Below, piece after piece: positions 11,112 through 52,046 of a stretch of DNA of 64,000 nucleotides. Under the pieces are notes generated by a model. It was not told the DNA's origin and did not search any database. It worked only from the letters and a program-made list of their open reading frames with translations. The stretch is from Clostridia bacterium (GTDB lineage: Bacteria > Bacillota > Clostridia > Oscillospirales > Acutalibacteraceae), in the NCBI GenBank assembly GCA_017520705.1, contig JAFXFF010000044.1, positions 60,108 to 124,107 on the forward strand, given 5' to 3'. Positions within the stretch are counted from its first letter, which is position 1; the number at the start of each line of letters is the position of its first letter. A program made the position numbers and the translations under genes.

Positions 11112-11716
11112 TGTGCCTCCCCCTTTCTCATACACGCCTTTTTGATGGCGAGGACAATCTTTTGAGTCAGTCGTGCGGCACCCTTGGACGCCGCCTTACA
11201 GCCATAGAAAGCGAAGATGGCGAGGCCGCCGCAGACAAGAGCAGCGGCAAGGACAGCCAGCCCCGAGGGAACGTAGCCGCCGATGGCGAAGCCGATGCCA
11301 CCCACCGGACCGATAACAGCGCAGGCCGCCAGCGACACAAACACCGCCCAGAGAGACACGATCACCGACCACAGCACCGCATACAGCGACAGCACCACCG
11401 CAAAGGCGGCGATCAGCCGCGACAGCCAGATGGGAGACCCGAGAATCAGCAGGACAATCGTCAGTGCGGACATAGGCCTGCGCGAGCGAATACGCACCTT
11501 GATCAATTCCGGGAAGGGGTATTCGTCTACCACCTGCAGGACAATATCGTTCACCGATCCCACGGAGGCCACCGCCTCCTCCTCGGTGAGGCCCTCCTCC
11601 ATACGGTCATCGATCTGCTCGCTGTAAAACTCGATACGCCCGTCAATTTCCTCCTGCGGTAAGCCGGACAGCCCCTGCCGCAGATCGGAAAGAAATTCCT
11701 GTTTACGCATGCTCAT
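11108..11716 (-). CDS. DUF1700 (HAAS) membrane protein
   Basis: MRKQEFLSDLRQGLSGLPQEEIDGRIEFYSEQIDD… N-terminal domain followed by multi-TM Gly-rich region. The canonical PadR-DUF1700-DUF4097 triad. Confidence 0.7.
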   Translation of the reverse strand: MSMRKQEFLSDLRQGLSGLPQEEIDGRIEFYSEQIDDRMEEGLTEEEAVASVGSVNDIVLQVVDEYPFPELIKVRIRSRRPMSALTIVLLILGSPIWLSRLIAAFAVVLSLYAVLWSVIVSLWAVFVSLAACAVIGPVGGIGFAIGGYVPSGLAVLAAALVCGGLAIFAFYGCKAASKGAARLTQKIVLAIKKACMRKGEAQ

Positions 11717-13183: not shown

Positions 13184-13213
13184 AGTGTTTTAATATCCCA
13201 ACCGCGAGAGGAG

Positions 13214-16200
13214 GTGGAAGGCTTGCCGGAACAGTTAACGCAATACATATCCCAACTGAATAAGAGCAATTCCCGCCGTGCAGGCCTCCGCCAGGCGCTG
13301 TTCGCCCTCTCTCTGGTGGCGATACTCATCGTGTTCTGGTGTCTCAAACTGACCGGTATTACGATGGCCGGCGAAGCCTTCTGCGGCAAAGAAGAACACG
13401 TCCACACAGCCGAGTGTACGCAAACGGGATGTGCATTGGAAGAACATATCCACGACCCCACCTGCTACAGCAACGTCCAAATTGACGTAGAGACCGCCGA
13501 TGACTGGGAGCAGACGCTGGCCGGCATCACCCGCGGCGAGACCACGGCAGAGAACGTGGTGGCGGTAGCCACATCCCAACTGGGGTATCGGGAAAGTACG
13601 CAAAACTTCCAAGTGGACGCGAACGGTGTCCGACGGGGCATCACCCGCTACGGACAATGGTACGGCAACCCCTACGGCGACTGGTCGGCCATGTTTGCCT
13701 CCTTCTGCCTGCACTATGCCGGGGTGACCGACCTGCCTGCCAATGCAGGCGCCGAATCCATGCGACTGGAATGGGCAGAGGACGGCCTGTATCGGGCCGC
13801 GGCCCATTACGCACCGCAGGTAGGCGACCTGCTATTCCTCACCGAAAACGGCAGCACCGCCAACGCGGTGGCAATCATCACCGCTGTGAGTGACAGCGGC
13901 ATCACGGTGATACAAGGTGACGTGGAAGATGCCGTCAGCGAGGTAACCTATCCCCTCGACAGCACGCCTATTCTGGGGTACGGCACCGTGCCTGAACAAT
14001 CGGAGCTGACGGTGCTGGCCACCACACCTGACGGTGCCACCGTGGTGGCGCGTACCACCGCCTATTCAGCCGGTATGCTGACGCAGGGAAACAGCTTCGT
14101 CATCTACACCGTCAGCGGCGGCAACTATTACGCCATCGACGGCAGCGGCAACGCGGTGCCTGTGTACATAGAAAACGGCAACATTTTTGCGGATGTGGCA
14201 GATCCCAACACGCTGCTGTGGAATTTCACCGCCAACGGCTCCTCCTACGTTATCCGAAACGTAGGCACGGGGCGTCATCTCCACCCCTTCTACAACAGCA
14301 ATACCGATAACGGCGTCACCACCTCCGGCGGATGGACCACCTCGGTGGTCACCTCCGGCAACGGCGTCAAATTCCGCGCCTCTGCCTATGCCCGCCTAAA
14401 TGCGAGCGGCGGCAATTTCGTGATGACCCGTAACGAACAGGAGGGCACCGTATTCCAGTTTGGTGTGGTCAACAACCGCACCGTCTGGCTGGACGGTACC
14501 TGCGGAGGGATTATGAGCTTGGGCGGCTCCCCCAACACACCCTATACGGTGCTGCAGGGTGACGTCGTGAAACTTCCCACCGAATGGAAATCTCCTGACA
14601 AATACGCATACAAGCTGCGCGGCTGGTACGACGTGACCAACAACCGCTACTATCTGCCCGGTGCAGAGGTGACGGTCACCGACCATATGGTATTCTACGC
14701 CGATTGGACAGCAGAAACCTACGACGTGGGCCAATTCAATTCCCACGTAGCGGAAACCACCAGCACCAACCAGTTTGTCACTGTCCGTATGTTTGACTAC
14801 GGGCCTCTGTTCAACCTCTTATCCACACGAGCCAACGTCACGGTAAACAGCAGCGGACACACCGAGACCTGGAACCTCTTGACCTCCGGAAACAATCCCT
14901 ACAACGGAGATCCTACGCTGAACTTCATCTTCCGTGACTGGGACCGCGGCAACGAGGATATCTCCTATCCCAACGGCACCAATGCGGCTAACAACCCCAC
15001 CGACGCCGGCAGCGTGTATCCGGGACTGTATACGGATAACTTGGGCAGCCTGCTCTTCGACCCCGAATTGCAGGTCCTCGGCAAACAGTATTTGGGTGAG
15101 GGCGATCATCTATTCCAGCTCTGTGTGGATCCCAACGATCCCAATTACGGCTATTACTACTACGATTCCCAGCGCAACGCGGCATCGTATAACCAAAGCG
15201 ACGGACGCTTCTATGTCTACGACTATCTGGAGTGCACCCGCGACTCGCTGAACAACGGTTATGCAGACTTTTTGCCACTGAACTCTCCCTACGCCAATAC
15301 CAATGGCAAGCTCATCCCCACCTACCAATACGGAGGTGTCAACGGTGAATACGACGGTGTGACCCACTATTCGTACGACAGTAAGTACAACACCAACGGC
15401 AACAACACCGACCACGTGGGCGCCAACTACTGGTATGGTATGAGCGTAGACATTCAGTTCTATCTCCCCCACGTCCCCGGTACGATACTGGAAAACGGTC
15501 GATACGGCAACCAGGACCTCTACGGCGGCGATATGCACTTCCATTTCGCCGGCGACGACGACGTATGGGTGCTGGTGGACGGCAAAATGGTGCTGGACCT
15601 GGGCGGTATCCACGGTGTCGAGAACGGCGATATCAACTTCTCCACCGGCGTGGTCACCGTCAACGGCAGGGTGAATACGGCATTGTCCAACACCCTCAAG
15701 AGCATCTAGCCCGGCGAGCACACACTGACCCTCTACTATCTGGAACGCGGTAGTTCCAAATCCAACTGCGCTTTCCGTTTCAATTTGGCGCCCCGATTCA
15801 GCCTCGCCCTTCAAAAAGAGGACGTGCTGACCCGCCACCTGCTCAACGGTGCCCAGTTCTCGGTCTTCACCGACAAAGCCTGCACCCAACCGGCCACCCT
15901 GTGGACCAGCCAGCAGGCCTACTACGCCAACGAGGATCCCAACCACGTATTTACCGTTGTAAACGGTAAAGCCGATATGTGGGGACTCATCGCTGGCGAG
16001 ACCTATTACATCGTGGAGACCAAGCCGCCCGACGCCACCGGCTACATCGGAGCGGACGGCATTATCTGCCTGACCATCGACAAAAACGGTATCGCCTCCT
16101 ACTCGGTGGAGGTGAGGGAGAACGCTGACGGCGAACTTTCGCCCGGTTTCACGGTCCACGGTGTGAAAATTGATGAGGAAACCCAGCAAGCCTTCCTCAT

Positions 16201-17509
16201 CGCCACTAACGCGCCCGAGACCATCACCGAAGCCACCAGCGTGACAGTGAACAAGATCTGGGACGACGACAAGGATCACTCCGCCGATTACATCACGGTG
16301 TATTTGACGGTGACCGACCCCGACGGGACGGTGCGCCGCATCCGTGAAGTGATCCTCAGCGCGGAGAACAACTGGCAGTATACGTGGGAAAACCTTCCCA
16401 AGACCGACGCCGACGGCAACATCGTCCAATACGGCGTCAGCGAATCCACCGTTCCCGGCTACGTGAGTCGGGTTGAGATCACAGAAGGACCGCCGGGAGG
16501 TGACAGCTCCGACGGTGAAGGTAGTGGTCCCGGAGATGTGACAGCGGTGGGGAGCTTCCAAAACGGCCAAACCTATCTGCTGAGCACCAGATTCGGCTGG
16601 CTGACCGCCAACAACAATCAGTTGGGACTGGTCACCAATCAGCAGACTGCCGCCGGCTCCGACAGCGCCCTGTGGGTGGCAACGGTTAACGGTGACGGCA
16701 CCGTCACCCTGACCAACAAACGAGGACAAACCCTCTATTACGACAACTACACCTTCAAGGCAGGCTCCTCACCGGGAACCTACAAAAACCTCCGCTTTGC
16801 GGACAACCGTCTATACTGCTATATCAATCACGGCGGGTGGAGCGAGACGCAATATCCCATTGACGACGACAACGTCCCCAGTAACCTGACCTACAACCAC
16901 GTGTTGTATACCACCAACAACAGTGCACAAGCCCTGGTGATCACACCGCAGGCTCTGGGCGGCAGTCCGCCGGAACCCGAGCCTGAGCCGCCTCCCGACA
17001 GCGGCGGAGGTGACAAACACTTCCAGATCACCAACACGCCGGCAGGCCAGGCCGTCACCTCCCTTACCGTCCATAAGATATGGGATGTAGGCGACCTGGG
17101 AGATGCCTCGCTGTACGAGAAGCTGGTGGTACAAATCCGTCTGCTGGCTAACGGCGTGGACGCCGGCCTTACAGGTCAGCTCAGCCTCAAGAACGGATGG
17201 GTCTACACCTTCCAGGATCTGCCACTATACGACAGTGGCGGTCAAATGGTGGTGTACACCGTGGAGGAACAATTCATCTCGGAGGATTGGATCGTGCACT
17301 ACGGCAACGTCATCTCCTCCGGCGGAAGCAGCCCCACCTACACGGTCAACGTGACCAACACGTACCGAACAGGGGGGCCCATGTTGCCGGCCACCGGCAC
17401 GGCGGCACGTCTGTACTTTGTACTGTGCGGAGCGAGCATCATGCTCGGAACGCTGGTATACGGATTTGCATTGAGGCGTAAGCGTAAGCGAGAAAGGAGG
17501 TTAGAGTAG
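13214..17509 (+). CDS. Giant LPXTG pilus tip adhesin (CHAP/NlpC-like, fibro-slime/PA14-like, beta-trefoil-like, 2x CnaB), interrupted by an in-frame TAG at 15707-15709. Possible pseudogene, phase-off allele or readthrough.
   Basis: Track ORFs 13214..15709 and 15785..17509 are in the same frame; the translation reads …NTLKSI*PGEHTLTLYYLERGSSKSNCAFRFNLAPRF… uninterrupted except for TAG. C-terminus is LPATG + TM + RRKRKRERR. Probable start TTG 13223 after GAGGAGG. Confidence 0.75.
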
Positions 17510-17601
17510 CCTTCTGATCGCGGCAAAACTTGCGCCGTGAATGCAGATCTTAAGTAAACTGTAAACCAAAAAATTTTTAAATTCAGAAAGGAAGAAAACT
17601 C

Positions 17602-19104: not shown

Positions 19105-19215
19105 TCTTAGTCTCTTGTCCATTTTCTCGCTGACTAATTAATCGATATCCCCGGCGGAGGTATCCGCCTCCGCCGGGGATAGAGTTAAGTATTCCACAAC
19201 ATCAGGGGGAAGCCT

Positions 19216-20052
19216 ATGCTGAGCAAAAAAGCGACAATCCTATTGCTGGTCTTCTTTTTCATAGGTTTGTCCGTGCTGTTGTATCCCAGCATCAGCAGCT
19301 ACTGGAACTCCAAGACCCAGAGTGAGGCCATTGTAGACTACGAGGAGATGCTGGCCAACTACAAGCCGGAGGACCGCACCGCCCTCTTTGAAGCCGCCGA
19401 CGCCTACAATCAAAAGCTGGCGGCACTATTCCAGCCCCTGCAGGAGTATGGGGCACTATCCGAGGAATACTGGAAAACGCTGGACGTCACCGGAACGGGC
19501 ATGATGGGGTACATCACCATACCCAAAATCAGTCAAGAGCTGCCCGTCTACCACGGCACCTCAGATGCGGTGCTGGGTAAATCGGTGGGCCATCTGCAGG
19601 GCTCCAGCCTGCCGGTGGGCGGTGTCAGCACCCACAGCGTGGTATCCGCCCATCGCGGACTGCCCTCGGCGGTGCTGTTTACCCACCTGGATCGCATGGA
19701 GGTGGGCGACACCTTTTCCTTCACCATCCTGGACCGCACCTTTACCTATGAGGTGGATCAGATCCGCATCGTGGAGCCGGACGACACCAATCTGCTCCGC
19801 TTAGAGACGGGCAAGGACTACTGCACCCTGCTGACCTGCACCCCCTACGGTATCAACACCCAGCGTCTGCTGGTACGAGGTCACCAGATCGACGCCAGCC
19901 AAAAGAGCAATCTCTACATCGCCAATGAAGCCTATCGGGTGGACACCCTCATCGTCACACCCTTGGTGGCGCTGCCCATCATTTTGGCCCTGCTCATCTA
20001 CGTGATGCTGGCCCCCGTCAAGAAAGAACAGTTAGGAGAGGATACGCTATGA
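19216..20052 (+). CDS. srtC: Class C (pilus-polymerising) sortase
   Basis: N-terminal TM; HRGLP (His); TLLTCTPYG (Cys); LLVRGH (Arg); C-terminal TM lid/anchor. Confidence 0.9.
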   Translation: MLSKKATILLLVFFFIGLSVLLYPSISSYWNSKTQSEAIVDYEEMLANYKPEDRTALFEAADAYNQKLAALFQPLQEYGALSEEYWKTLDVTGTGMMGYITIPKISQELPVYHGTSDAVLGKSVGHLQGSSLPVGGVSTHSVVSAHRGLPSAVLFTHLDRMEVGDTFSFTILDRTFTYEVDQIRIVEPDDTNLLRLETGKDYCTLLTCTPYGINTQRLLVRGHQIDASQKSNLYIANEAYRVDTLIVTPLVALPIILALLIYVMLAPVKKEQLGEDTL

Positions 20053-20954
20053 CAAAACGAATACTTGCGTGTGTGCTGGCGGTATTCTGCCTGCTGATGC
20101 CTCTGTCGGTGCAGGCGGAGGAATTGAACACCGAGCAGCTGTGCAATCTGACGCTGGAATATTCCCACGAGGGGGTGGCCTTTGCCGATGTGGAAGTGGC
20201 TATCTATCGGGTGGCAGAAGCGCATACGGACGGCTCCTACGACCTCATCGCGCCCTATGACGCATACTCCGTCAACATCCACGGCATCACCTCCCAAAAG
20301 GAATGGCAGGACGTGGCGGCTACCTTAACCGCCTATATTACCGCCAACGGGGTCGAACCCACCGCGAGCGGAGTCACCGACAAGGCGGGCGAGGTGGTTT
20401 TGAGCGACTTGCCCGTAGGATTGTACCTCGTACAAGGTGCCCGTGCCGAAAATGAAAAGGGCACCTACGTATTCCGCGAGTTTATGATCTACCTGCCCAC
20501 GCCTGCAGAGGACGGCACCTACCAATACGATCTGCGTGCGAAGCCCAAATGCCACCAGTACACCCCCACCGAAAACTATCGGGTGGTGAAACTGTGGAAG
20601 GACACGGGTAGCGCCCTGCGCCCCGATGAGGTGGTGGTGGACATCTACAAGAACGGTGCGCTCCACGAGACGGTGTCGCTGAATGGAAACAACGGCTGGA
20701 GCTATGAATGGACCGACAAGGAACAAGCGCGGTGGCAGGTGACAGAGCGGGACGTGCCGGAGGGCTATCAGGTATCCGTCACCAACCACGAGACGGTATT
20801 TACCATCACCAACGCAAACCCCGACGCTCCTCCCCCGCCACCCGCTACGGGGGACAGCTTCCCTTGGCTGATGTGGGTTGTGATCGTATGTCTGGTGGGC
20901 TTTGCGCTGGTGCTGGTGGCTCTGTGGGGACGACGATATGAAAAGACGAAATAA
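20049..20954 (+). CDS. Minor/basal pilin with CnaB-type domain and non-canonical PPATG sorting signal
   Basis: Signal peptide; YRVVKLWKD… CnaB fold; PPPPATGDSFPW + TM + GRRYEKTK. Confidence 0.7.
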   Translation: MTKRILACVLAVFCLLMPLSVQAEELNTEQLCNLTLEYSHEGVAFADVEVAIYRVAEAHTDGSYDLIAPYDAYSVNIHGITSQKEWQDVAATLTAYITANGVEPTASGVTDKAGEVVLSDLPVGLYLVQGARAENEKGTYVFREFMIYLPTPAEDGTYQYDLRAKPKCHQYTPTENYRVVKLWKDTGSALRPDEVVVDIYKNGALHETVSLNGNNGWSYEWTDKEQARWQVTERDVPEGYQVSVTNHETVFTITNANPDAPPPPPATGDSFPWLMWVVIVCLVGFALVLVALWGRRYEKTK

Positions 20955-21501
20955 GTGGATACTGTGGGCGGGTGTAGCCCTCATTGCCGTCAGCCTGTGT
21001 GCGGCGGCGGTGTTCGGCCTGCTCCAGCGACGCGGCGAGCGACAGGCGGCGGACATCGCACGGCAAATCGAGGCGGCACTGCCGCCCCGCACCGTGGGCG
21101 CGGAAGAGGCCTACAGCGTGATGCAGATGCCTGCCCTGAGCATTGAGGGCGAGGACTTTGTGGGGCTGGTGGAGATCCCCGCCTACGGGGTCACGCTGCC
21201 CCTCTGTGACGAGTGGCAGCCTACCCAGCTGAACCGCTATCCCTGCCGCTTTTGGGGTACGGCGTATGACGGCAGTCTCATCATCGGCGGCGGTGCCAAA
21301 CAGTTTGCCTGCCTCGGGCAGATACAAAACGGCGACGAGGTGCGGGTGACGGATATGCAAGGGGCGGTGTTCACCTACACCGTGACCCGTATCCGCCGTA
21401 CCGACCACGCGGATGCAAAGACACTTAAAAATGAAGCGTCACTCACGCTGTTTGCGCGGGACGGAGCCAATATGGAGTATATTATAGTAGAATGTATGTA
21501 A
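20938..21501 (+). CDS. Sortase-fold protein lacking the His-Cys-Arg catalytic triad (degenerate sortase paralog)
   Basis: N-terminal TM. Aligns block-by-block with the srtC product (LVEIPAYGVTLPL ~ ITIPKISQELPVY; FTYTVTRIRR ~ FTYEVDQIRI), but HRG becomes GGGAKQ, TLLTC becomes TLFARD, and the protein ends before the Arg. Confidence 0.55.
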   Translation: MKRRNKWILWAGVALIAVSLCAAAVFGLLQRRGERQAADIARQIEAALPPRTVGAEEAYSVMQMPALSIEGEDFVGLVEIPAYGVTLPLCDEWQPTQLNRYPCRFWGTAYDGSLIIGGGAKQFACLGQIQNGDEVRVTDMQGAVFTYTVTRIRRTDHADAKTLKNEASLTLFARDGANMEYIIVECM

Positions 21502-21892: not shown

Positions 21893-22362
21893 GAAGCCTC
21901 ATAATAATAGAAATTTCCACAGATGTGCTCTGTATAATACCGATTATCCCCATTGGGTTCTTGACACTCAAATCCATTTCCGGAAGGAGTCAACGCACTG
22001 GCAGACGACGGTGCGCACCACACAGCAGCCATATCGTTTTCCGAGGTATAATAGAAACCTACATAAGAGGTACCCGAACCTACACCAGCACCACCACAGG
22101 AAAAGTCAACAACCGTTTCGTCTGCATCGATTTCTTTGATAAAGCCTTTATTCTCATATGCAGAAAAGTCTCCAGCTTCAATTGCCTTCAGCAGTTCTTC
22201 CTCATTCTCACTCACGAAATCAAAAACCTCGTCTTTATCGGCGCTATCATCCCCTGTTGCGACAAGGAAAAGGAAAAAAGCACCACCCAAGATATCCGAG
22301 CACCCAGACAGAGAAAACACCATAATTACAGCCAAAAGCAGGGCTAATCCTTTTTTTAGCAT
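21886..22362 (-). CDS. Lipoprotein of unknown function
   Basis: MLKKGLALLLAVIMVFSLSGCS lipobox; Cys/Tyr-rich C-terminus. Confidence 0.55.
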   Translation of the reverse strand: MLKKGLALLLAVIMVFSLSGCSDILGGAFFLFLVATGDDSADKDEVFDFVSENEEELLKAIEAGDFSAYENKGFIKEIDADETVVDFSCGGAGVGSGTSYVGFYYTSENDMAAVWCAPSSASALTPSGNGFECQEPNGDNRYYTEHICGNFYYYEASF

Positions 22363-22366
22363 ATTC

Positions 22367-22948
22367 TCACTCCCGTCCCAGCAGCAGCGCATATTGGTTA
22401 GACAAAACTTTTGACAAAACGCAGAACACCGCAGACATTACCACACCACACCACACCAGCGGTGATGACATCGCAATCCCACCTGCATAGTGGATCGTCG
22501 CCCAAACATATCCCAAAAGCGTGATTCCTAAGGTTGCAAGGCAGGAACAGACAGAAAAAATCTTTCGATTTTTATACACCCGGAGGAAAAACCAGTTTGC
22601 CAGAGACAAGAGGTATCCGGTTGCAGGAACAATCAGCGCCACTGCCCACAATCCGTTGGTATTTCCTGTAGGGGTACTACCTTCTAAAATTACACCCAGC
22701 GTAATAATGGCAAAGGAAACGAATAGCATTACCGATTGTAGGACAGACGCTTTCCAATCACTCACACGACGCAGCTTCACAGTATTCGGTTTTTCTTCAA
22801 AACTTTGGCATGTCTCACGCATCTGATCATATATTTTGCGGCAACTCTCACATGCGTCAAGATGCTCGGCTACAAGTCTTGCACTTTCTTCCGAACAACA
22901 TTCATCCACGTATAGGGGCAGCAGATCCATTATTACATTGCAGTCCAT
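22367..22948 (-). CDS. Anti-sigma factor, zf-HC2 type, with TM domain
   Basis: MDCNVIMDLLPLYVDECCSEESARLVAEHLDACESCRKIY (HxxxCxxC zinc motif) followed by 4 predicted TM helices. Confidence 0.75.
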   Translation of the reverse strand: MDCNVIMDLLPLYVDECCSEESARLVAEHLDACESCRKIYDQMRETCQSFEEKPNTVKLRRVSDWKASVLQSVMLFVSFAIITLGVILEGSTPTGNTNGLWAVALIVPATGYLLSLANWFFLRVYKNRKIFSVCSCLATLGITLLGYVWATIHYAGGIAMSSPLVWCGVVMSAVFCVLSKVLSNQYALLLGRE

Positions 22949-22949
22949 A

Positions 22950-23414
22950 TTATCGACCCAATCCTTCCATAATTTTTTGTTTGGCACGGTAGTAAGTAAC
23001 ACGAGCCCAGCTTTCACTTTTTCCAAACATCGCACTGATATCTTTCAACGATAGGCCGCCAAAAACAGAAAGCATAAAAACTTCTTTGTATGGCTCTTCC
23101 AAGGCGTGCAGGAGGGAAAAGGCTCTGCCGGCAAGTTCCTTTTCCTCGAAAAGCTCGGCAATGTCAGGTGTGCTATCCGCAGATATTGGCTGTGAAATTG
23201 GCTGATTTCTTTTCTGTTCGTTGAACCAAGCAAAGTATGTATTTTTTGCAATTTGGCACAGCCATAATGCTACTTTTTCTTCGTTTCTCAGAGCTGATAA
23301 GTTCATATACGCACGAAAAAAGGTTTCCTGCGTTAGTTCCTCTGCCAAAGATACATCACCGCATAGTTTCATCAAAAAACGAAAAACGAATTGATCGTTC
23401 TCTCGGAACACCAT
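22950..23414 (-). CDS. ECF (sigma-70 family) RNA polymerase sigma factor
   Basis: Region 2 (FRFLMKLCGDVSLAEELTQETFFRAY) and region 4 (GGLSLKDISAMFGKSESWARVTYYRAKQKI). Stop abuts the anti-sigma start. Confidence 0.8.
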   Translation of the reverse strand: MVFRENDQFVFRFLMKLCGDVSLAEELTQETFFRAYMNLSALRNEEKVALWLCQIAKNTYFAWFNEQKRNQPISQPISADSTPDIAELFEEKELAGRAFSLLHALEEPYKEVFMLSVFGGLSLKDISAMFGKSESWARVTYYRAKQKIMEGLGR

Positions 23415-23550
23415 TTCAAAGTCCAGCACACCCTCACCACCTTTCACTTATTAGATTGGGAAATAGTAAAAACGTTACAATTATTATACAGACACCAGCG
23501 TGATTTTTCAAATATGTTGCGAAATAAGTTCTATACTGTTGATCCGTCGA

Positions 23551-23690
23551 ACTAACCCATTAGCTACACACAAGTCTCTTTCGTTACACGCAGACCCTAT
23601 TCGCTACACGGAGAGCACTATTGGTTACACGGAGACCCCTATTAGTTACACGGCGACTTCAATTCGTTACACGGCTAAATAGGGGTAATT
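23551..23690. repeat. Six tandem ~21-bp iteron-like direct repeats (core GTTACACGGnGA…CTATT)
   Basis: tagcTACACacaagtctcttt / cgtTACACgcagaccctatt / cgcTACACggagagcactatt / ggtTACACggagacccctatt / agtTACACggcgacttcaatt / cgtTACACggctaaatagggg. Confidence 0.8.
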
Positions 23691-23821
23691 TCAAAGAAAT
23701 ACACATTCCAAAACAGCCGATTTCTATAAATGTTCTTTTTTATATAAAATATGTGTATTTTCGCTGTTGTTTTGAATATAAAAAGTTCCCGTCTAACTCT
23801 ATCAAAGTTAGACGGGAAATG

Positions 23822-23906
23822 TGGTGCGAGGGAGGGGACTTGAACCCCCACGCCATTTGACACACGCACCTCAAACGTGCCTGTCTGCCGATTCCAGCAC
23901 CCTCGC
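23822..23906 (-). tRNA. tRNA-Leu (anticodon GAG), type II with long variable arm, CCA encoded
   Basis: Reverse complement GCGAGGG-TG-CTGGAATCGGCAGA-…CACGT-TTGAGGT-GCGTG-…-GGGGGTTCAAGTCCCCT-CCCTCGC-A-CCA. 7-bp acceptor stem, T-loop TTCAAGT, anticodon loop TT-GAG-GT, discriminator A73 (Leu-type). Confidence 0.75.
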
Positions 23907-24057
23907 ATATAACAGCGCTTATTATACCACCTCCTTTTCCCCGTGTCAATGCTTTTCCAGCCTTTTCCGATTAAAAATCGAACGAAAGTCTTGACAATTT
24001 TTCGACAATCCAGCATAATAGTAATGATATTATTGAATGAATGCGAGGTGTTTCCTA

Positions 24058-28327: not shown

Positions 28328-31300
28328 TTAGTTGGCGTTTTTCTCCACAGCCAAGGTGACCACCTCACCGTTGATATTCCACTCCTTGACGTAGCCGGCG
28401 GTCTCGCCCACGGTCAGGGCGGTGGCCATCACGTCGGAGCCGATGGACTCCCAGTTGCGACCCACCAACTTCTCCACGCTCTCGTTGCCGGTGACGTAGA
28501 CGGAGATGGTATCCATCACCTCGAAGCCGGCCTCTTTACGCATGGTCTGCAGCTTGCTGACCACCTCGCGGACAAAGCCCTCCTCAATGAGTTCGGGAGT
28601 CAAGCGAGTGTCGATGGCCACGGTGATGCCACGGTCGGAGACGGTGTAATAACCCTCGGTCTAGGTGGTCTCGATGAGCAGATCCTCGGTAGCCAGTGTC
28701 ACGTCGCCGCTCGCCAAATTCAGGGTGATAGCACCCTTCTCATTGAGCTCGGCCATGGTGGCATTGCCGTCCAGCTCGGTGAGGGCGGTGCGGATCTCGT
28801 TCAACTGCTTACCATACTTGGGGCCGACGGTCTTGAGCTGAGGCTTGAAGGAGTAGCTCATAAAGGCGGCGGCGTCGGTGATAAACTCCACCGACTTGAT
28901 ATTCAGCTCGTCGGCGATGATGGCGGTGCAGAACTCGTCCAAGGAGCCGTCCATCTGGACGTACATCTTGCCCAAGGGCTGACGATTCTTGCAGGCGGCG
29001 CCGTTACGGGCGGCACGACCCTGCACCACGATCTGCAGAACGCTGTCCATAGCGGTCTCGAGGGCGGTGTCGATGTAAGCCTCATTGACCTCAGGATAGG
29101 CGCACAGATGGACGCTGACAGGAGCGGTGGGATCGTTCTCACACACCAGATTGCGGTAGATATCCTCCGCCATGAAGGGAATCATGGGAGCGGATGCCTT
29201 GGCCACCGTCACCAGAGCGGTGTACAGGGTCATATAGGCGTTGATCTTATCCTGAGGCATATCCTTGCCCCAGAAGCGCTCACGGCTACGGCGGACGTAC
29301 CAATTACTCAGCTCGTCCACGAAGTCCTGCAACACGCGAGAAGCCTCAGGGATGCGGTAGTTGGCCAGATGATCGTCCACCGCTTTCACGCAGGAATTGA
29401 GACGAGACAAAAGCCACTTATCCATCACGGACAATTTGTCGTATTCCAGGCTGTACTTGGTGGCATCGAAGCCGTCAATGTTGGCGTACAGCACGAAGAA
29501 GGCGTAGGTGTTCCACAGAGTGCCGAGGAACTTGCGCTGGCACTCCTGCACCGCCTTACCCGAGAAGCGGTTGGGCAGCCAGGGAGCGGAGTTGGAATAG
29601 AAGTACCAACGGATGGCGTCGGCGCCGTAGGTCTCCAGCGCCTCGAAGGGATCCACGGCGTTGCCCTTGGACTTACTCATCTTCTGGCCGTCGGCATCCT
29701 GCACGTGACCCAAGACGAGGACGTTCTTATAGGGTGCCTTATTGAACAGCAGGGTGGAAATCGCCAGCAGAGAATAGAACCAACCACGGGTCTGGTCCAC
29801 GCCCTCGGAGATGAAATCGGCGGGGAACTGCTTAGCAAAGACATCCTGATTCTCGAAGGGATAGTGATGCTGGGCGAAGGGCATAGCGCCGGAGTCGAAC
29901 CAGCAGTCGATGACCTCGGGCACACGCTTCATCACGCCGCCGCAATCGGGGCAACGCAGGGTGACCGCGTCGATGAAGGGACGGTGCAACTCCACGTCCT
30001 CGGGACAGTCGATGGCCATCGATTTCAACTCTTCACGGCTGCCGATGGCGTGCTGACAGCCGCAGGAGCACTCCCAAATATTGAGAGGTGTACCCCAATA
30101 GCGGTTACGGCTGATACCCCAATCCTGCACGTTCTCCAGCCAGTCGCCGAAGCGACCCTTGCCGATGGATTCGGGGATCCAGTTGACGGTGTTGTTGTTG
30201 CGGATGAGATCCTCCCGCACGGCGGTCATCTTGATAAACCAAGACTCACGGGCGTAGTAGATCAGAGGCGTGTCGCAACGCCAGCAGAAGGGATAATCGT
30301 GCTCAAACTTAGGCGCATCGAACAGCTGACCGCGGGAGTCCAGATCCACCAAAATCTTGGGGTCGGCGTCCTTGACGAACAGGCCGGCGAAGGGGGTGTC
30401 CTCGGTCATATGACCGGCGCCGTCCACCAACTGCACGAAGGGCAGGTCGTACTTACGACCAACCTGGGCGTCGTCCTCGCCGAAGGCGGGAGCGATATGC
30501 ACGATACCGGTACCATCGGTCATGGTGACGTAGCCGTCGCAGGTGATGTAGAAGCCGTCCTTCTTCTGCTTGTCGGCCAGCGCCTTGGCACAATCGTAGA
30601 GGGGCTCGTAGGCCTTGCGCTCCAGGTCGCGGCCCACGTAGGTCTCCAGCACCTCGTAGGCGGGAGTGTCCTCGGTAGCCAGCTTGCCCAGCACGCGGTC
30701 CAGCAGAGCCTCGGCCATATAGTAGGTGTAGCCGTCAGCGGCCTTTACCTTGCAATAGGTCTCGTCGGGGTTGACGCACAGCGCCACGTTGGAAGGCAGG
30801 GTCCAAGGGGTGGTGGTCCAAGCGAGGAAATAGGCGTCCTCGTCGGCCACCTTAAAGCGTACCACGGCGGAGCGCTCCTTGACGCACTTGTAGCCCTGAG
30901 CCACCTCGTGGCTGGACAGAGGGGTGCCGCAACGGGGGCAATAGGGAACGATCTTAAAGCCCTTGTACAGCAACTGCTTGTCCCAGATCTGGCGCAGGGC
31001 CCACCACTCGGACTCAATGTAATCGTCGTGATAGGTGACGTAGGGATCGTTCATATCCACCCAGAAGCCAACGGTGCCGGAGAAGCCTTCCCACATGCCC
31101 TTGTACTTCCAGACGCTCTCTTTACACTTCTCGATGAAAGGCTCCAGACCGTATTTCTCGATCTGCTCCTTGCCGTCCAGACCCAGCTGCTTCTCCACCT
31201 CCAGCTCGACGGGGAGACCGTGGGTATCCCAGCCCGCCTTACGGGGAACCATCTGGCCCTTCATGGTGCGGTAGCGGGGAACCATATCCTTGATAACACG

Positions 31301-31483
31301 GGTCAACACGTGGCCGATATGGGGCTTACCATTGGCCGTGGGAGGGCCGTCGTAGAAGGTGTAGGTCTCCCCTTCCTTGCTCTGCTCCAAGGACTGCTCG
31401 AAGACCTTATTCTCAGTCCAGAACTGCAGCACCTCGCGCTCACGCTGTACAAAATCCATATTGGTCGATACTTTCTTGTACAT
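28328..31483 (-). CDS. ileS: Isoleucine--tRNA ligase, type 2, interrupted by an in-frame TAG at 28661-28663
   Basis: HIGH (PTANGKPHIGHVLTRV) and KMSKS motifs. Track ORFs 31540..28661 and 28621..28328 are in the same frame, and conserved C-terminal sequence continues: …EDLLIETT*TEGYYTVSDRGITVAIDTRLTPELIEEGFVRE…. Start ATG 31483 after GGAGGT. Confidence 0.9.
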
Positions 31484-31775
31484 CTCAATACCTCCAAACA
31501 ATAAAAAATCCCCCGTCCCGCAAAACAGGACGAAGGTCAAACTTCGCTATACCACCTATTTGCACGTACCATCATACGCCGCCCCGCTAACGGTGGGCAA
31601 CCGTCCGCGCCTAATAGGAAACATCCGTTCAGCCGGCAACTCCCGAGGGATATTCACGCAGGCTCTCTCCGTCGGGCTTACACCCTCCCCGACTCGCTGT
31701 GGGATATACCCCTGCGCTACTGACTCGTTCACTGTTTTTAATTATCATACAATATAATAGCGGATAGCGGAGGAA
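31484..31775 (-). promoter_or_regulatory. Candidate T-box leader with terminator/antiterminator upstream of ileS
   Basis: Leader strand shows promoter TTGACA…TATTAT, AGAGAG (AG-box), T-box-like AATAGGTGGTATAGCG, and intrinsic terminator tcgtcc-tgttttgcg-ggacgggggATTTTTTATT just before the RBS. Confidence 0.5.
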
Positions 31776-32179: not shown

Positions 32180-33280
32180 TTACACCCAGTCGTTGAGATA
32201 GTCCATATAGGCTTCTTCGTCATAAGAATCTAACCAGAACATATAACTACCACATTCAGATAACTCCAGAATTTCATCAGCTGACAAAACTGCGGCATAG
32301 CCATAGTGAGAAAGCGATCCATCCGATTTTTTCGTACCATAAGCCGCAGAAAGCACATACGAAAGAACAGCTTTTTCATTCTTTTCTAAATCCTCTTTCC
32401 AACGCCCTTCCAAAGGGATCGGTTCAATATCGCTGAACTTTGCCAAAGCTTCCACCGCTTCATCTGCACGAGCATTCCAATAGGCCAACTTAAAATCATG
32501 TTGTCTACTATCGTACTGCGACCGTAAAGAACGATAGGTTTCGCCTGCACTCCATTTGAGGCCGGCGGCTTCATATTCTCCCCAGGCTAACTGCACCTCC
32601 TCCGCCAATTTTACCATTTCATCGCTTTGCAAAAGTGCATCGACCGCTTCGTTAAGGTCCTCCACTAACTTTTGATTATATTTGGGGTTGATGGCAACCA
32701 ATACGGCATATACGGCATCGGTATCTTTGTATTGCTCCATAGCTTGCTTCAACAGCGGAGATATTTCTCCCGGCTTAAACAATCCTATAGGCATTTGGTC
32801 CAGAGTATCATCGTCGATAGCTTCAACCCCGGTAATCAGCAGTTTATCTGTGGGCGCAGTGGTCGACGTAGTCGTCTTGGACGGCTCGGTCTTGCCGGTG
32901 GTGGGGGCTTGGGTAGCGGTGGGCTTGGACGGGGCGGGTGCTGTAGTCGTGGGTGCGGTGGTGGGCGGGGTTACGATGCCGCCGTCGGTGGTGGGTGCGG
33001 GTGCGGTGGTATTTACAGTAGTTGTCGTGGTGGTGGTGGCCTCACCCTCGGTGGGGATATGGGTGGTCGTGGTGGTGGCTCCGCCGTCGGAAATCGGCGG
33101 GGTCTCGCGGAAGGCGTCACTCTTAAACAGAGCAAAACTGGCCAGCGACACCAGCGCCACAGAACCGACGGACACGGTGGTACGGGCTATAACCTGTTTT
33201 TTCTTCTTCTGTTCAGCTACATAACGATTGCGGCGCTCTAACAAACGGTTGGTCAAATCATCGTAATTCTTCATACACAA
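32180..33280 (-). CDS. Putative anti-sigma factor: cytoplasmic N-terminus, single TM, Thr/Pro-rich stalk, extracellular domain of unknown function
   Basis: Start overlaps the upstream ECF sigma stop (ATGA…). Architecture and genomic coupling only; no named domain recognised. Confidence 0.5.
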   Translation of the reverse strand: MCMKNYDDLTNRLLERRNRYVAEQKKKKQVIARTTVSVGSVALVSLASFALFKSDAFRETPPISDGGATTTTTHIPTEGEATTTTTTTVNTTAPAPTTDGGIVTPPTTAPTTTAPAPSKPTATQAPTTGKTEPSKTTTSTTAPTDKLLITGVEAIDDDTLDQMPIGLFKPGEISPLLKQAMEQYKDTDAVYAVLVAINPKYNQKLVEDLNEAVDALLQSDEMVKLAEEVQLAWGEYEAAGLKWSAGETYRSLRSQYDSRQHDFKLAYWNARADEAVEALAKFSDIEPIPLEGRWKEDLEKNEKAVLSYVLSAAYGTKKSDGSLSHYGYAAVLSADEILELSECGSYMFWLDSYDEEAYMDYLNDWV

Positions 33281-33971: not shown

Positions 33972-34955
33972 TCACTCGTCAACATTGTAACCACTATCAT
34001 TATACACATCGTTGATTGTGTCGGGCGAATCCAACCAGAACATATATGTGCCTCGCTCTGCCAACTCATTGATTGCATCGGCAGACAGAACGGCGGAGTA
34101 GAAATACGATGCACGATACGAATACATATGCAATGTCAAAACAATAGGCGACACCTCGTCAGAGGGTTTCGAGTACGCATCGGCAACCAGATCGAACAAC
34201 TCCGTTTCGCTTAACTTTGCCAAAGCATCCACCTCTAAATTTGCAAGGTTTATACCGTATTCGACTTTAAAATTGGTAACACGATTATGATACTCACCCC
34301 ACTTTTCTTGCTCAGCGAGCTGCACCATTTCATCAGTCGCTTTGAACTCTTCAACCGCTTTGTTCATTTCATCCATAGCAGAAGCCTGATCAAAGCGAGG
34401 GCACACAGCAACCAAAACGGCATAGATGGCGTTGGCATCTTTGTTTTTCTCCATCGCTTCTTTCAAAAGCGGTGAAATCTCACCATATCTAAACTTAGGT
34501 GACTCGTCACCAAAACAATCTGCACCATAGTCATCCGGCTCATCTCCGGTAATGAGCAGTTTGGTCGGAGCAGTTGTAGTGGCGGTCGTCTTGGGCGGCT
34601 CCGTCTTACTCGGGGCGGTGGTGGGAACGGTGGTGGCGGTGGTGGTGGGTGCCACCACGCCGCCGTCGGTGGTGGGTGCGGGTACGGTGGTATTTACAGT
34701 AGTTGTCGTGGTGTCCTCCCCCTCGGTGGGGATATGGGTGGTCGTGGTGGTGGCTCCGCCGTCGGAAATCGGCGGGGTCTCGCGGAATGCGTCGCTCCGC
34801 AGCAGGGCGATACCGGCCAGCGACACCAGCGCCACCGAGCCCACCGAGGCGGTGACGCGGGTGACAAGCTGCTTTTTCTTCCGCTGTGCGATCACGTATT
34901 GCTCTCGCCGCGCAAACACGCTGTCGGCGATCTCTCTATAGCTCTTCATAAACAA
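33972..34955 (-). CDS. Putative anti-sigma factor (paralog of 32180..33280)
   Basis: Same architecture; the N-terminal ~110 aa are near-identical to the paralog (…VGSVALVSLA…LRSDAFRETPPISDGGATTTTTHIPTEGE…). Confidence 0.5.
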   Translation of the reverse strand: MFMKSYREIADSVFARREQYVIAQRKKKQLVTRVTASVGSVALVSLAGIALLRSDAFRETPPISDGGATTTTTHIPTEGEDTTTTTVNTTVPAPTTDGGVVAPTTTATTVPTTAPSKTEPPKTTATTTAPTKLLITGDEPDDYGADCFGDESPKFRYGEISPLLKEAMEKNKDANAIYAVLVAVCPRFDQASAMDEMNKAVEEFKATDEMVQLAEQEKWGEYHNRVTNFKVEYGINLANLEVDALAKLSETELFDLVADAYSKPSDEVSPIVLTLHMYSYRASYFYSAVLSADAINELAERGTYMFWLDSPDTINDVYNDSGYNVDE

Positions 34956-49796: not shown

Positions 49797-51080
49797 TCAG
49801 TTGAGTTTATCTACGCAGACGCCGCCGTAGGGACGGATGTTCAGCACGTGGCAAGAGCCCTCACCGAACACCTGCTCGATGGTGGACTTGAAGGTGTCCA
49901 GCATATCCAAGGGGACGAAATTCTGGGTGGTGCCGCCGAAGCCGCCGCCGTGGACACGCCAAGCGCCGCGGCCCTCCAGCAGGCGGTGAGCCAGAGCCAA
50001 AGCCAGAGCCATACTCTGCTCGCGGACGTCGTGAACGGCGTAGACGTTCTGCAAATACTGGAAAGAGGAGTTACCGGAGGCGATGATGAGCTTTTTGAAA
50101 CCCTCGAAGTCGCCTGCCTTCAGCGCCGCCACCTGCTCCACCACGCGGTCATTCTCCTGCAGGAAGTGGATGGCACGCAGAACGGCGCGGTCGCCGTGTT
50201 CCTTACGCAGAGCGGTGATATTAGCCAGCAGAGTCTCCATATTGGTCTGGCGCAGGACCGGCACACCCAGCGAGGCGGCCACCGCCTTCATCTCGCCGGG
50301 GACGGCGGCGTACTCGTGGGTCAGGTCGGCGTGGTCGCCGCCCACATCCACGATGCACAACGCGTGACCGGTAGCGGCAAAGTCCACGTCCACCTTCTCG
50401 ATGATGGGGTTGGCGGGATCGGCGAAGTCGATGGTGATGATATTACCCACAGAGGAGGCCATCTGGTCCATCAGGCCGCAGGGCTTGCCGAAATACACGT
50501 TCTCGGTGTACTGGGCGATCTGAGCGATCTCCACGGCGCTGACCTTGCCCTCATTGTACAAATGGTTGAGGATAACGCCGATGAGCACCTCGAAGGCGGC
50601 AGAGGAGGAAAGGCCGCTACCCTTGAGCACGTTGGAGGTGGCGTAGGCGTCGAAGCCGTCGATGGCGTAGTCCAGATCGGCAAAGCGGGCGGCGGTGCCG
50701 CGAATGAGAGCGGCAGAGCCGTTCTTCTCCTCCTCCACAGGGAGCAATTCGGAAATGTCCACCTCAATGATGGGATAACCCTCGGACTGCATACGGATGC
50801 CGCCATCGGTGGGGCGCACCACGGCGATGACGTCCAGATTGACCGAACCCGCCAGCACACGGCCAAAGTTGTGGTCGGTGTGGTTGCCGCCGATCTCGGT
50901 GCGACCGGGGGCGGAGAACAAAAGCAGATCTCCCTCACCGCCGAAGGTGGCGGCAAAGCCCTCTACCGCGGCGGCGTAGCGATCGCGCTGGGCAGGCACC
51001 TGTGCCTCGCCGTAAAGCGCGGCGAAAGCGGCGTCGTAACCGCCCGAGCGAATCGTATCCAGCAAGATTTGAGCAGACAT
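49797..51080 (-). CDS. galK: Galactokinase
   Basis: GRTEIGGNHTDHNFG (galactokinase signature), GHMP ATP loop GSGLSSSAA. Confidence 0.9.
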   Translation of the reverse strand: MSAQILLDTIRSGGYDAAFAALYGEAQVPAQRDRYAAAVEGFAATFGGEGDLLLFSAPGRTEIGGNHTDHNFGRVLAGSVNLDVIAVVRPTDGGIRMQSEGYPIIEVDISELLPVEEEKNGSAALIRGTAARFADLDYAIDGFDAYATSNVLKGSGLSSSAAFEVLIGVILNHLYNEGKVSAVEIAQIAQYTENVYFGKPCGLMDQMASSVGNIITIDFADPANPIIEKVDVDFAATGHALCIVDVGGDHADLTHEYAAVPGEMKAVAASLGVPVLRQTNMETLLANITALRKEHGDRAVLRAIHFLQENDRVVEQVAALKAGDFEGFKKLIIASGNSSFQYLQNVYAVHDVREQSMALALALAHRLLEGRGAWRVHGGGFGGTTQNFVPLDMLDTFKSTIEQVFGEGSCHVLNIRPYGGVCVDKLN

Positions 51081-51221: not shown

Positions 51222-52046
51222 ATGGCACAAGAACGGTACCAATTCCGAGATACACTGAAGGAAAACGCAGGTCTGTCGGTATACAACACCGGCTACGAGC
51301 AATGCGCCAGCGGGCACATTTGGGGCCCTGCCCTGCGCGACCATTACCTCATCCACTACGTGGTGTCGGGAAGCGGCACTCTGCGATGCAATCAGCAGAC
51401 CTACACCGTGGGACCGGGGATGCTGTTCATCATCTTTCCCTCTCAGGTGGCCAGTTATCAGGCAGACGTCCACGACCCGTGGCAATACAACTGGGTGGGC
51501 TTTAACGGCACCGATGCCCGACGGCTGGTGAAGCTGACGGGGCTGAGCAAGGAGCAGCCCGTGTGGACCAGCGACGACCCTGAGGAGACCTGTGCCCTGC
51601 TGCGCGGTATCGCGGACGCCAGCGACAACACCGCCGCCGCCGATGCGGAGATGGTAGGGCGACTGTATCTGTTTTTGGCGCACCTGATCCACCGCAACCG
51701 CCGCCGCACTATGGGGGACACGCACCAAACCTACGTAGACAATGCGCTGCGGTACATCCAGTATAACTACGCCAGCAACATCGGTGTGGCGGATATCGCC
51801 CGCTACGTGGGCATCAGCCGCAGTCAGCTGTATCGCGCCTTTTTGCAGGATTTCGGGGTATCTCCCCACGCCTATCTGCAGACCTATCGCATCAACGAGG
51901 CCTGCAGTCTGCTCCGCGACCCCGCCTATTCGGTGACGGAGGTGGCGGGCTCGGTGGGATTCAACGATCCCTTGTATTTTTCCCGCGTATTCAAGTCCAT
52001 CAAGGGGATCACCCCATCCGACTATCAGAAAAACCGTAAACAGTGA
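51222..52046 (+). CDS. AraC family transcriptional regulator, divergent from galK
   Basis: Cupin-like N-domain + C-terminal 2xHTH (IADIARYVGISRSQLYRAF…; VTEVAGSVGFNDPLYFSRVFK). Confidence 0.85.
   Translation: MAQERYQFRDTLKENAGLSVYNTGYEQCASGHIWGPALRDHYLIHYVVSGSGTLRCNQQTYTVGPGMLFIIFPSQVASYQADVHDPWQYNWVGFNGTDARRLVKLTGLSKEQPVWTSDDPEETCALLRGIADASDNTAAADAEMVGRLYLFLAHLIHRNRRRTMGDTHQTYVDNALRYIQYNYASNIGVADIARYVGISRSQLYRAFLQDFGVSPHAYLQTYRINEACSLLRDPAYSVTEVAGSVGFNDPLYFSRVFKSIKGITPSDYQKNRKQ

What the first reader, a model, noticed from the sequence alone, without database searches (positions are those of the whole stretch)
28328..31483. Essential ileS carries an in-frame TAG (28661-28663) with conserved protein sequence continuing on both sides
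The two minus-strand ORFs 31540..28661 and 28621..28328 share one frame. Translating across the gap gives …EDLLIETT*TEGYYTVSDRGITVAIDTRLTPELIEEGFVRE…, a contiguous type-2 IleRS C-terminal region. IleRS is essential, and its C-terminal domains contribute to tRNA-Ile anticodon recognition. A true nonsense codon here should be lethal or severely deleterious, and no second ileS is visible in this window. TAG is otherwise a working terminator here (ECF sigma at 34936-34938; pilus tip gene end 17507-17509), so global code reassignment is unlikely. Candidate explanations: a sequencing or assembly error, a strain with an amber-suppressor tRNA, context-dependent readthrough, or a truncated but still functional IleRS. 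A second in-frame TAG in the same window (pilus tip gene) makes a common cause worth testing.
Basis: partly seen in the sequence, partly recalled or inferred. Interest (0 to 1): 0.75.

Follow-up and report, generated by a model that had tools for sequence, protein, structure and literature searches.

The report
Private amber mutation in MAG ileS
The stop codon inside the essential isoleucyl-tRNA synthetase gene is a single C-to-T change found only in this metagenome-assembled genome, not a recoding signal, so it is an ordinary lesion or sequence error.

Summary
The minus-strand type-2 ileS (31483..28328) has one in-frame TAG at 28661-28663, and IleRS homology continues on both sides.

The TAG is not conserved. 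118 of 120 homologues have Gln at this position. All nine near-identical contigs (99.6-99.99%) from other samples have CAG, and in two of them this base is the only difference from the window.

The pilus-tip TAG (15707-15709) is the same kind of change, CAG to TAG, and is intact in all three near-identical relatives. Both belong to a set of seven SNVs private to this genome across 59.8 kb. Six are G:C>A:T transitions and all seven change the protein.

The window matches an NCBI short-read MAG ("Clostridia bacterium", IKL13 locus tags) that has no IleRS protein on record.

The gene looks like a working housekeeping copy: it has a T-box leader and no other lesion. Truncation at residue 940 would remove ARD3, including the Arg whose mutation abolishes tRNA charging in P. 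megaterium IleRS2.

Best reading: an unselected point change, either an artefact or a non-representative variant. Amber suppression or a second ileS cannot be excluded without the reads and the rest of the genome. Interest is low.

The parts
28328..31483 (-). ileS, type-2 isoleucyl-tRNA synthetase, 1051 codons including the in-frame TAG
   Evidence: TIGR00392 ileS, 947 bits; PmIleRS2 8C8U, 1091 bits. Intact 1051-aa orthologue in contigs L006-L010.
28661..28663 (-). In-frame TAG at codon 941; CAG (Gln) in all relatives
   Evidence: Q in 118 of 120 homologues. (C instead of T at 28663 in 9 of 9 near-identical contigs). (CAG 70, CAA 9, CGG 1 in 80 species genomes).
28535..28549 (-). Codons for Q979, R982 and K983, equivalent to the PmIleRS2 ARD3 residues Q961, R964 and K965 that read anticodon base G34; downstream of the TAG
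   Evidence: Alignments, mapping, function from preprint 10.64898/2026.02.03.703510.
31523..31741 (-). T-box leader upstream of ileS, with AUC (Ile) at the aligned specifier position
   Evidence: RF00230, 96.7 bits, gathering score 93, E 5e-20; sequence.
13223..17509 (+). Sortase-pilus tip or adhesin gene (1428 aa in relatives), split here by the TAG at 15707-15709
   Evidence: The MAG annotation gives two CDSs of 828 and 574 aa.
15707..15709 (+). Second in-frame TAG; CAG in all 3 near-identical contigs that cover it
11418..11418 (-). Private SNV, CTG>CGG, L98R in the PadR-linked HAAS membrane protein
   Evidence: 5 of 5 relatives differ.
22438..22438 (-). SNV private among the near-identical clone, GTG>ATG, V171M in the zf-HC2 anti-sigma factor; Met also occurs in a 99% strain
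34427..34427 (-). Private SNV, GTC>ATC, V175I in the 325-aa gene downstream of the ECF sigma factor
50659..50659 (-). Private SNV, GGC>GAC, G141D in galactokinase; Gly in 14 of 15 cluster members
51936..51936 (+). Private SNV, GCG>ACG, A239T in an AraC-family regulator

Best explanation
A single C>T transition, private to this metagenome-assembled genome, changed the Gln-941 codon CAG of the T-box-regulated housekeeping type-2 ileS to TAG. It is a lesion, not a programmed or conserved signal. It belongs to a small set of lineage-private changes that are almost all G:C>A:T and show no sign of selection; this set also created the TAG in the pilus-tip gene.

Read literally, the gene would yield a 940-residue enzyme. 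It would still activate isoleucine, but it would lack the second half of ARD2 and all of ARD3, which holds the pocket for anticodon base G34, so it should not charge tRNA-Ile.

Shown: the change is private and derived, the mutational class is shared, and the lost residues are the ARD3 pocket. Inferred: the base does not represent the working gene of the viable, dominant population. It is probably a library or assembly-level error (for example cytosine deamination at low unique coverage) or a defective or minority variant captured by short-read metagenome assembly.
For: (1) Derived and private. 9 of 9 contigs at 99.6-99.99% identity from other samples have CAG, and in L012 and L013 this is the only difference. 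Q is present in 118 of 120 homologues, and the codon is CAG or CAA in 79 of 80 species genomes.

(2) Same class as the other TAG. 15707 is C in 3 of 3 relatives.

(3) Seven private SNVs lie in 59.8 kb. Six are G:C>A:T, there are no indels, and all seven are non-synonymous, including G141D at a conserved GalK glycine and L98R. This pattern shows no purifying selection.

(4) The source is a short-read MAG. Five private alleles match NCBI proteins MBR3779524/525/531/541/554/555 on one 124,107-bp contig, and no IleRS protein or fragment is on record. Related contigs carry the XIEF21-1 label of a MEGAHIT/IDBA-UD ruminant-gut project.

(5) The gene is otherwise a healthy housekeeping copy. It has a T-box leader, very high coding score and only one lesion.

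(6) The truncation removes the equivalents of PmIleRS2 Q961, R964 and K965. R964A lowers aminoacylation by at least 10^3-fold and the transfer step by 10^4-fold.

(7) Base rate. Another short-read MAG (L067, RGIG3042) has TGG>TAG at an invariant catalytic-core Trp of ileS. A MEGAHIT contig of this same clone (L005) breaks ileS with a 1-bp deletion.
Against: No reads are available, so an error cannot be demonstrated. A 124-kb contig suggests reasonable coverage, and random read errors rarely reach the consensus at about 1 per 10 kb. Random damage or neutral mutation would leave about 53% of G:C>A:T changes silent or intergenic, yet none of the six is (p about 0.01). That pattern is not predicted by this explanation, although n is small and the window was chosen because of the two stops. 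RGIG MAG loci in general show no excess of in-frame stops (1 in 202 kb versus 8, mostly false positives, in 1296 kb), so a dataset-wide artefact is not supported. One of the private alleles (M171) is a natural polymorphism.
Confidence: 0.6

Rival explanations
1. The TAG is a real, fixed amber mutation in living cells, and full-length IleRS is still made. This would happen through an amber suppressor tRNA (for example tRNA-Gln CUG>CUA, itself a G:C>A:T change, or one supplied by a TAG>Gln recoded prophage), or through basal near-cognate readthrough by tRNA-Gln. Either route re-inserts the wild-type Gln. The T-box would amplify the effect: a shortage of charged tRNA-Ile derepresses ileS transcription.
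For: Both in-frame TAGs sit at Gln codons, so Gln insertion restores both wild-type proteins. TAG is followed by A, which from my own knowledge of E. coli supE context effects is a favourable context. TAG is a rare terminator here, about 2 of 44 genes in the window, so a suppressor would be cheap. A T-box feedback loop is present. TAG>Gln recoded Topaz prophages integrate in Oscillospiraceae (10.1101/2021.08.26.457843). The lineage was abundant enough to assemble a 124-kb contig.
Against: No suppressor tRNA, prophage or RF1 gene is in the window (the release factor present is RF2). CAG>TAG is simply the commonest way a G:C>A:T change makes a stop in this genome (333 of 962 possible nonsense sites), so both TAGs being at Gln needs no suppressor. 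The TAG allele is found in no other public assembly. A comparable amber in ileS of another MAG hits an invariant Trp, where Gln insertion would not help.
Confidence: 0.22
2. The mutation is real, and a second IleRS elsewhere in the genome (IleRS1, or another IleRS2) carries the load, so this copy is a brand-new pseudogene.
For: Some bacteria carry two ileS genes, and IleRS2 can be the sole or the second copy (PMC10485003). The window covers only about half of one contig.
Against: This copy has a T-box leader with an Ile specifier and one of the best codon-adaptation scores in the window. It is strictly conserved and intact in all nine near-identical contigs and in 79 of 80 related species. It carries a single lesion and no other decay.
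Confidence: 0.08
3. The 940-residue product works on its own, or it reassembles non-covalently with a C-terminal fragment re-initiated at an in-frame GTG 42 nt (28621) or 99 nt (28564) after the first base of the TAG; the second GTG is preceded by GGAGG. This would be a natural split IleRS.
For: In-frame start codons and one SD-like GGAGG lie downstream of the TAG. From my own recollection, not checked here, fragment complementation of E. coli IleRS was shown by Shiba and Schimmel in 1992. The INS subdomain just upstream of the break is dispensable in PmIleRS2.
Against: ARD3 is essential for the transfer step. The GGAGG is 14 nt from the GTG and there is no SD before the first GTG. No relative has this arrangement. 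No such fragment protein is on record.
Confidence: 0.03
4. TAG is a sense codon in this organism, through genome-wide reassignment or pyrrolysine.
For: Two in-frame TAGs in 64 kb, and low use of TAG as a terminator.
Against: Both TAGs are absent from contigs that are 99.98% identical. TAG ends the tip-pilin and ECF sigma genes at positions shared with relatives. Only these two sites pass the coding filter.
Confidence: 0.01

Closest known systems
Amber (CAG>TAG) nonsense mutations and supE-type (tRNA-Gln CUA) suppression in E. coli genetics
   Same: The codon change is the same, the mutational class is the same (G:C>A:T), and Gln insertion would restore the wild-type protein.
   Different: No suppressor has been shown here. 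The organism is an uncultured Acutalibacteraceae-like Clostridia MAG, and the allele is known only from one assembly.
'Internal stop' pseudogenes in short-read MAGs (consensus errors or captured defective variants)
   Same: There is a single-base disruption of an otherwise perfectly conserved essential gene, and no protein is on record for it in the annotated MAG. A parallel case is L067 (TGG>TAG in ileS), and L005 has a 1-bp deletion in the same gene of the same clone.
   Different: The error cannot be demonstrated without reads. The accompanying private SNVs are all protein-changing, which simple random error does not predict.
TAG>Gln recoding (genetic code 15) in gut phages and prophages (crAss-like, Lak, Garnet, Topaz)
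   Same: TAG stands where Gln is expected, and Topaz prophages occur in Oscillospiraceae hosts.
   Different: In those phages many genes carry in-frame TAGs that are conserved among relatives. Here there are two host genes, each with one private TAG, and no phage genes or suppressor tRNA are in the window.
Bacterial type-2 IleRS (PmIleRS2, PDB 8C8U/8C8V) with ARD1-ARD2(INS)-ARD3 C-terminal domains
   Same: The alignment is full-length (1091 bits). HIGH and KMSKS are present, and the ARD3 residues Q, R and K that read G34 are conserved.
   Different: The reading frame is interrupted at the INS/ARD2 boundary (equivalent to Pm P923).

Membership tests
Type-2 isoleucyl-tRNA synthetase (IleRS2) | Class I catalytic core with HIGH and KMSKS motifs, and an ileS-level model score | tested here: met
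   HIGH at residue 55 and KMSKS at residue 601. TIGR00392 scores 947 bits against a cutoff of 621. Pfam tRNA-synt_1 has E 6e-131.
Type-2 isoleucyl-tRNA synthetase (IleRS2) | C-terminal ARD2/INS/ARD3 region (Pfam DUF5915) instead of the IleRS1 zinc-binding domain | tested here: met
   DUF5915 matches on both sides of the TAG. The protein aligns to PmIleRS2 791-1012 with the Q961, R964 and K965 equivalents conserved.
Programmed stop-codon recoding or readthrough (Sec, Pyl, code 15, conserved leaky stops) | The in-frame stop is conserved in orthologues or close relatives | tested here: not met
   9 of 9 near-identical contigs, 120 homologues and 80 species genomes have a sense codon there.
Programmed stop-codon recoding or readthrough (Sec, Pyl, code 15, conserved leaky stops) | The stop codon no longer serves as a terminator, or many genes carry it in frame | tested here: not met
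   TAG ends two genes at conserved positions. Only two in-frame sites are found in 64 kb, and both are private.
Programmed stop-codon recoding or readthrough (Sec, Pyl, code 15, conserved leaky stops) | A dedicated decoder is present (tRNA with CUA anticodon, pyl genes, or loss of RF1) | not testable with these tools
   The only tRNA in the window is tRNA-Leu(GAG). The release factor in the window is RF2. The rest of the genome is not available.
Decaying pseudogene backed by a second functional copy | Multiple lesions or relaxed constraint in the disrupted copy | tested here: not met
   There is one substitution in 3.2 kb relative to nine relatives, no indels, and a top coding score.
Decaying pseudogene backed by a second functional copy | A second ileS exists in the genome | not testable with these tools
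   There is none in the window. The remainder of the MAG could not be retrieved.
T-box-regulated aminoacyl-tRNA synthetase gene | A T-box leader above the Rfam gathering score lies directly upstream, with a cognate specifier codon | tested here: met
   RF00230 scores 96.7 bits against 93, at 31523-31741 on the same strand. AUC lies at the aligned specifier position; the specifier assignment is by alignment only.

The most novel reading that the evidence does not exclude
The lineage is a natural amber-suppressing strain. It would carry a tRNA-Gln(CUA), either from a G:C>A:T change in a chromosomal tRNA-Gln(CUG) gene or from a resident TAG>Gln recoded prophage of the Topaz type known in Oscillospiraceae. 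CAG>TAG changes would then be tolerated even in the sole, essential, T-box-controlled ileS. That would be a first step of host-genome drift towards amber reassignment, caught in a gut commensal.
Probability: 0.08. Interest if true: 0.6.

Novelty: already known. Interest (0 to 1): 0.12.

Why it matters
As it stands, it matters little. It is a single private nonsense substitution in a short-read MAG, the kind of lesion annotation pipelines already flag as an internal-stop pseudogene. Its practical value is as a caution: in-frame stops in essential genes of MAGs should be polarised against near-identical contigs before recoding is invoked. It would matter only if reads proved the TAG fixed at high depth and a CUA-anticodon tRNA were found. 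In that case it would document a wild gut bacterium living with an amber codon in its only IleRS gene.

Tried and rejected
(1) Exact look-up of the truncated IleRS, of four possible C-terminal fragment ORFs, and of the private GalK and 325-aa proteins in the gene-position index. None is on record, so I could not fetch the MAG contig itself.

(2) Genome-contig scan with the IleRS protein. The 80 loci were reused as a base-rate panel.

(3) Metagenome-contig scans for the TAG allele and for a Y-degenerate control. Both were empty. The species is absent from that collection, so the result is uninformative.

(4) Release factor lead. The PCRF/RF-1 gene at 1673-2809 is RF2 (prfB), not RF1, and is identical to relatives, so it is irrelevant to UAG.

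(5) L107 first looked like independent support for a private allele. It is a 99.0% strain that merely shares Met171, so I rejected it as read-level confirmation.

(6) Deaminase-toxin or methylation-motif idea. The mutated C has no shared 5' context (TCC, CAC, CCC, GAC, CGC, CGC), and there is no transcription-strand bias, with 2 on the coding strand and 4 on the template.

(7) Dataset-wide artefact in RGIG MAGs. There is no excess of in-frame stops: 1 in 202 kb versus 8 in 1296 kb for the other genomes.

(8) Long-read error. This is rejected because there are no indel differences from relatives and the MAG project used short reads.
Full report
OBSERVATION. On the minus strand, the ORFs 31540..28661 and 28621..28328 share one frame. 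Translation from the ATG at 31483 gives a 1051-codon type-2 IleRS with a single in-frame TAG at 28661-28663, codon 941...EDLLIETT*TEGYYTVSDRG.... Pfam DUF5915 is matched at profile positions 2-86 before the stop and 90-194 after it. NCBIfam ileS scores 947 bits, and the protein aligns end to end with Priestia megaterium IleRS2, PDB 8C8U. A second in-frame TAG at 15707-15709 (+) splits a 1428-aa SpaA/Cna_B LPXTG pilus-tip protein. A coding-potential filter over the whole window returns exactly these two sites.

WHAT OCCUPIES THE POSITION ELSEWHERE. In 120 homologues with 75-97% identity, the residue is Gln in 118 and Lys in 2. In 80 species-representative genomes the codon is CAG in 70, CAA in 9 and CGG in 1. 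More decisively, exact-protein look-ups of neighbouring window genes retrieved 25 public contigs that are 99.6-100% identical to the window and together cover positions 1-59770. Nine of them cover the ileS site and all nine have C where the window has T, that is CAG. In L012 (5.5 kb) and L013 (4.8 kb) this is the only difference from the window. All three contigs that cover 15707 have CAG there. Both TAGs are therefore derived, lineage-private C>T transitions at Gln codons. This rules out a conserved or programmed stop and any code change shared with relatives.

THE COMPANY THE TAG KEEPS. Polarising every difference against the relatives gives seven SNVs private to the window in 59.8 kb:
- 11418, L98R in a HAAS membrane protein
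- 15707, Q829* in the tip pilin
- 22438, V171M in an anti-sigma factor
- 28663, Q941* in IleRS
- 34427, V175I
- 50659, G141D in galactokinase
- 51936, A239T in an AraC regulator

Six of the seven are G:C>A:T transitions, there are no indels, and all seven change the protein. Isolated singletons in the other contigs are mostly transversions: 2 of 9 are G:C>A:T by my count, giving a one-sided Fisher p of about 0.02 by hand calculation.

For a random G:C>A:T process in this window, I computed 35.7% synonymous, 17.5% intergenic, 43.9% missense and 2.9% nonsense outcomes, with CAG>TAG the commonest nonsense route at 333 of 962 sites. Two amber codons at Gln therefore need no special explanation beyond the mutational class. 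The complete absence of silent changes (p about 0.01) and the concentration on codon position 1 remain unexplained. I do not over-read this, because n is 7 and the window was selected for its two stops. No common sequence context or strand bias points to a deaminase or a methylation motif. GalK Gly141 is conserved in 14 of 15 cluster members. Met171 and Thr239 also occur in more distant strains, so the set mixes probably harmful changes with harmless ones.

SOURCE. Exact-sequence look-up shows that the window's private alleles are the proteins of one NCBI MAG, "Clostridia bacterium", with locus tags IKL13_07410, IKL13_07505 and others, and accessions MBR3779524.1 to MBR3779555.1, on a single 124,107-bp contig. 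The tip pilin is annotated there as two CDSs of 828 and 574 aa. No IleRS protein, truncated or fragmentary, is on record, which is consistent with an internal-stop pseudogene call.

The near-identical contigs carry the label XIEF21-1_SAMN158300xx. This label, together with the many RGIG MAGs among related genomes, points to the ruminant gut project of Xie et al. 2021 (PMC8199421). That project assembled short reads with MEGAHIT and IDBA-UD, singly and as co-assemblies. The attribution is probable, not verified. The nearest named genome is an Acutalibacteraceae MAG at 93% amino-acid identity.

IS THIS THE WORKING ileS, AND COULD THE TRUNCATED ENZYME WORK? A T-box leader above the Rfam gathering score lies directly upstream at 31523-31741 on the minus strand (96.7 bits), with AUC at the aligned specifier position. 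The gene has one of the highest coding scores in the window. It is intact in all near-identical contigs except L005, which carries its own 1-bp deletion. It has no lesion other than the TAG. That is not the picture of a decaying spare copy, although a second ileS elsewhere cannot be excluded.

The TAG aligns with PmIleRS2 P923, at the end of the INS subdomain (residues 851-925). The residues equivalent to Pm Q961, R964 and K965 are Q979, R982 and K983 here, and all lie downstream of the TAG. In PmIleRS2 these ARD3 residues form the pocket for anticodon base G34. R964A leaves Ile activation intact but lowers aminoacylation by at least 10^3-fold and the transfer step by 10^4-fold, whereas the INS subdomain is dispensable (preprint 10.64898/2026.02.03.703510). 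In-frame GTG codons lie 42 and 99 nt after the first base of the TAG, the second preceded by GGAGG at 14 nt. A split enzyme is conceivable but unsupported.

BASE RATE. Among the 80 species-representative genomes, one other ileS has an internal stop. L067, MAG RGIG3042 from goat rectum, has TGG>TAG at a Trp that is TGG in the other 79, inside the DWGISRNRYWG core motif. This is also a G:C>A:T change in a short-read MAG, at a site where Gln insertion would not restore function. Together with the L005 frameshift, it shows that gene-breaking single-base defects in ileS do appear in public short-read assemblies. However, RGIG loci as a group show no excess of in-frame stops, so I cannot claim a dataset-wide artefact.

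MECHANISM AND RIVALS. Best-supported reading (about 0.6): an unselected private C>T change that does not represent the functioning gene of the viable population. It would be either a library or assembly-level error or a defective or minority variant captured by the assembler.

Main rival (about 0.2): the allele is real and full-length enzyme is still made, either by a Gln-inserting amber suppressor or by near-cognate readthrough. Either route would restore the wild-type residue at both TAGs, and the T-box would raise ileS transcription as charged tRNA-Ile falls. TAG is a rare terminator here, about 2 of 44 genes. TAG>Gln recoded Topaz prophages are known in Oscillospiraceae. This rival is therefore not far-fetched, but nothing in the window supports it: the only tRNA is tRNA-Leu(GAG), and the release factor present is RF2, unchanged from relatives.

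Lesser rivals are a second ileS (about 0.08), a truncated or split functional enzyme (about 0.03), and code reassignment or pyrrolysine (about 0.01, effectively refuted by the relatives).

VERDICT. Novelty and interest are low unless the reads and the full genome show a fixed allele together with a suppressor.

Noticed in passing
window 31523-31741 (-): A T-box leader (RF00230, 96.7 bits) lies directly upstream of ileS, with AUC at the aligned specifier position followed by C rather than the usual purine.
   Followed up: partly
window 11418, 15707, 22438, 28663, 34427, 50659, 51936: All seven lineage-private SNVs change the protein, and five of the six transitions hit codon position 1. About half should be silent or intergenic under random G:C>A:T change (p about 0.01). 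This is unexplained.
   Followed up: partly
L067 11363-11365 (MAG RGIG3042, JAFSDL010000053.1): Another short-read ruminant-gut MAG has an in-frame TAG in ileS, at a Trp codon that is TGG in the other 79 genomes, inside the catalytic-core motif DWGISRNRYWG.
   Followed up: partly
L005 (ERZ27256864 k141_1544636), equivalent to window 30725 and 28877-28913: A MEGAHIT contig of the same clone has a 1-bp deletion that splits ileS (a 796-aa call), plus a cluster of 5 SNVs in 37 bp. These look like assembly or strain-mixing defects.
   Followed up: no
window 12536-21501 (+): A complete sortase-dependent pilus locus: signal-peptidase-like gene, 1428-aa tip adhesin, 500-aa SpaA backbone pilin with an LPXTG anchor, two sortases and a Cna_B minor pilin. 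Only the tip gene is broken.
   Followed up: partly
window 32952-33206 and 34632-34881 (-): Two tandem ECF sigma/anti-sigma modules share an 84%-identical 256-bp segment. Several public assemblies (L008, L010) are chimeric or collapsed exactly there.
   Followed up: no
window 1673-2809 (+): prfB (RF2) is called as one uninterrupted 378-aa ORF in relatives, so it apparently lacks the programmed +1 frameshift found in many bacteria.
   Followed up: no
window 22000-24000, tRNA-Leu(GAG) at 23822-23906 (-): GC dips to 43% around the only tRNA gene in the window. Contig L001 from another sample ends at 23825, just inside the tRNA gene.
   Followed up: no
window 46432: This is the only shared polymorphism seen among the near-identical contigs in about 60 kb (T in the window and L015, A in L016-L018). 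The clone is extremely uniform across samples.
   Followed up: no
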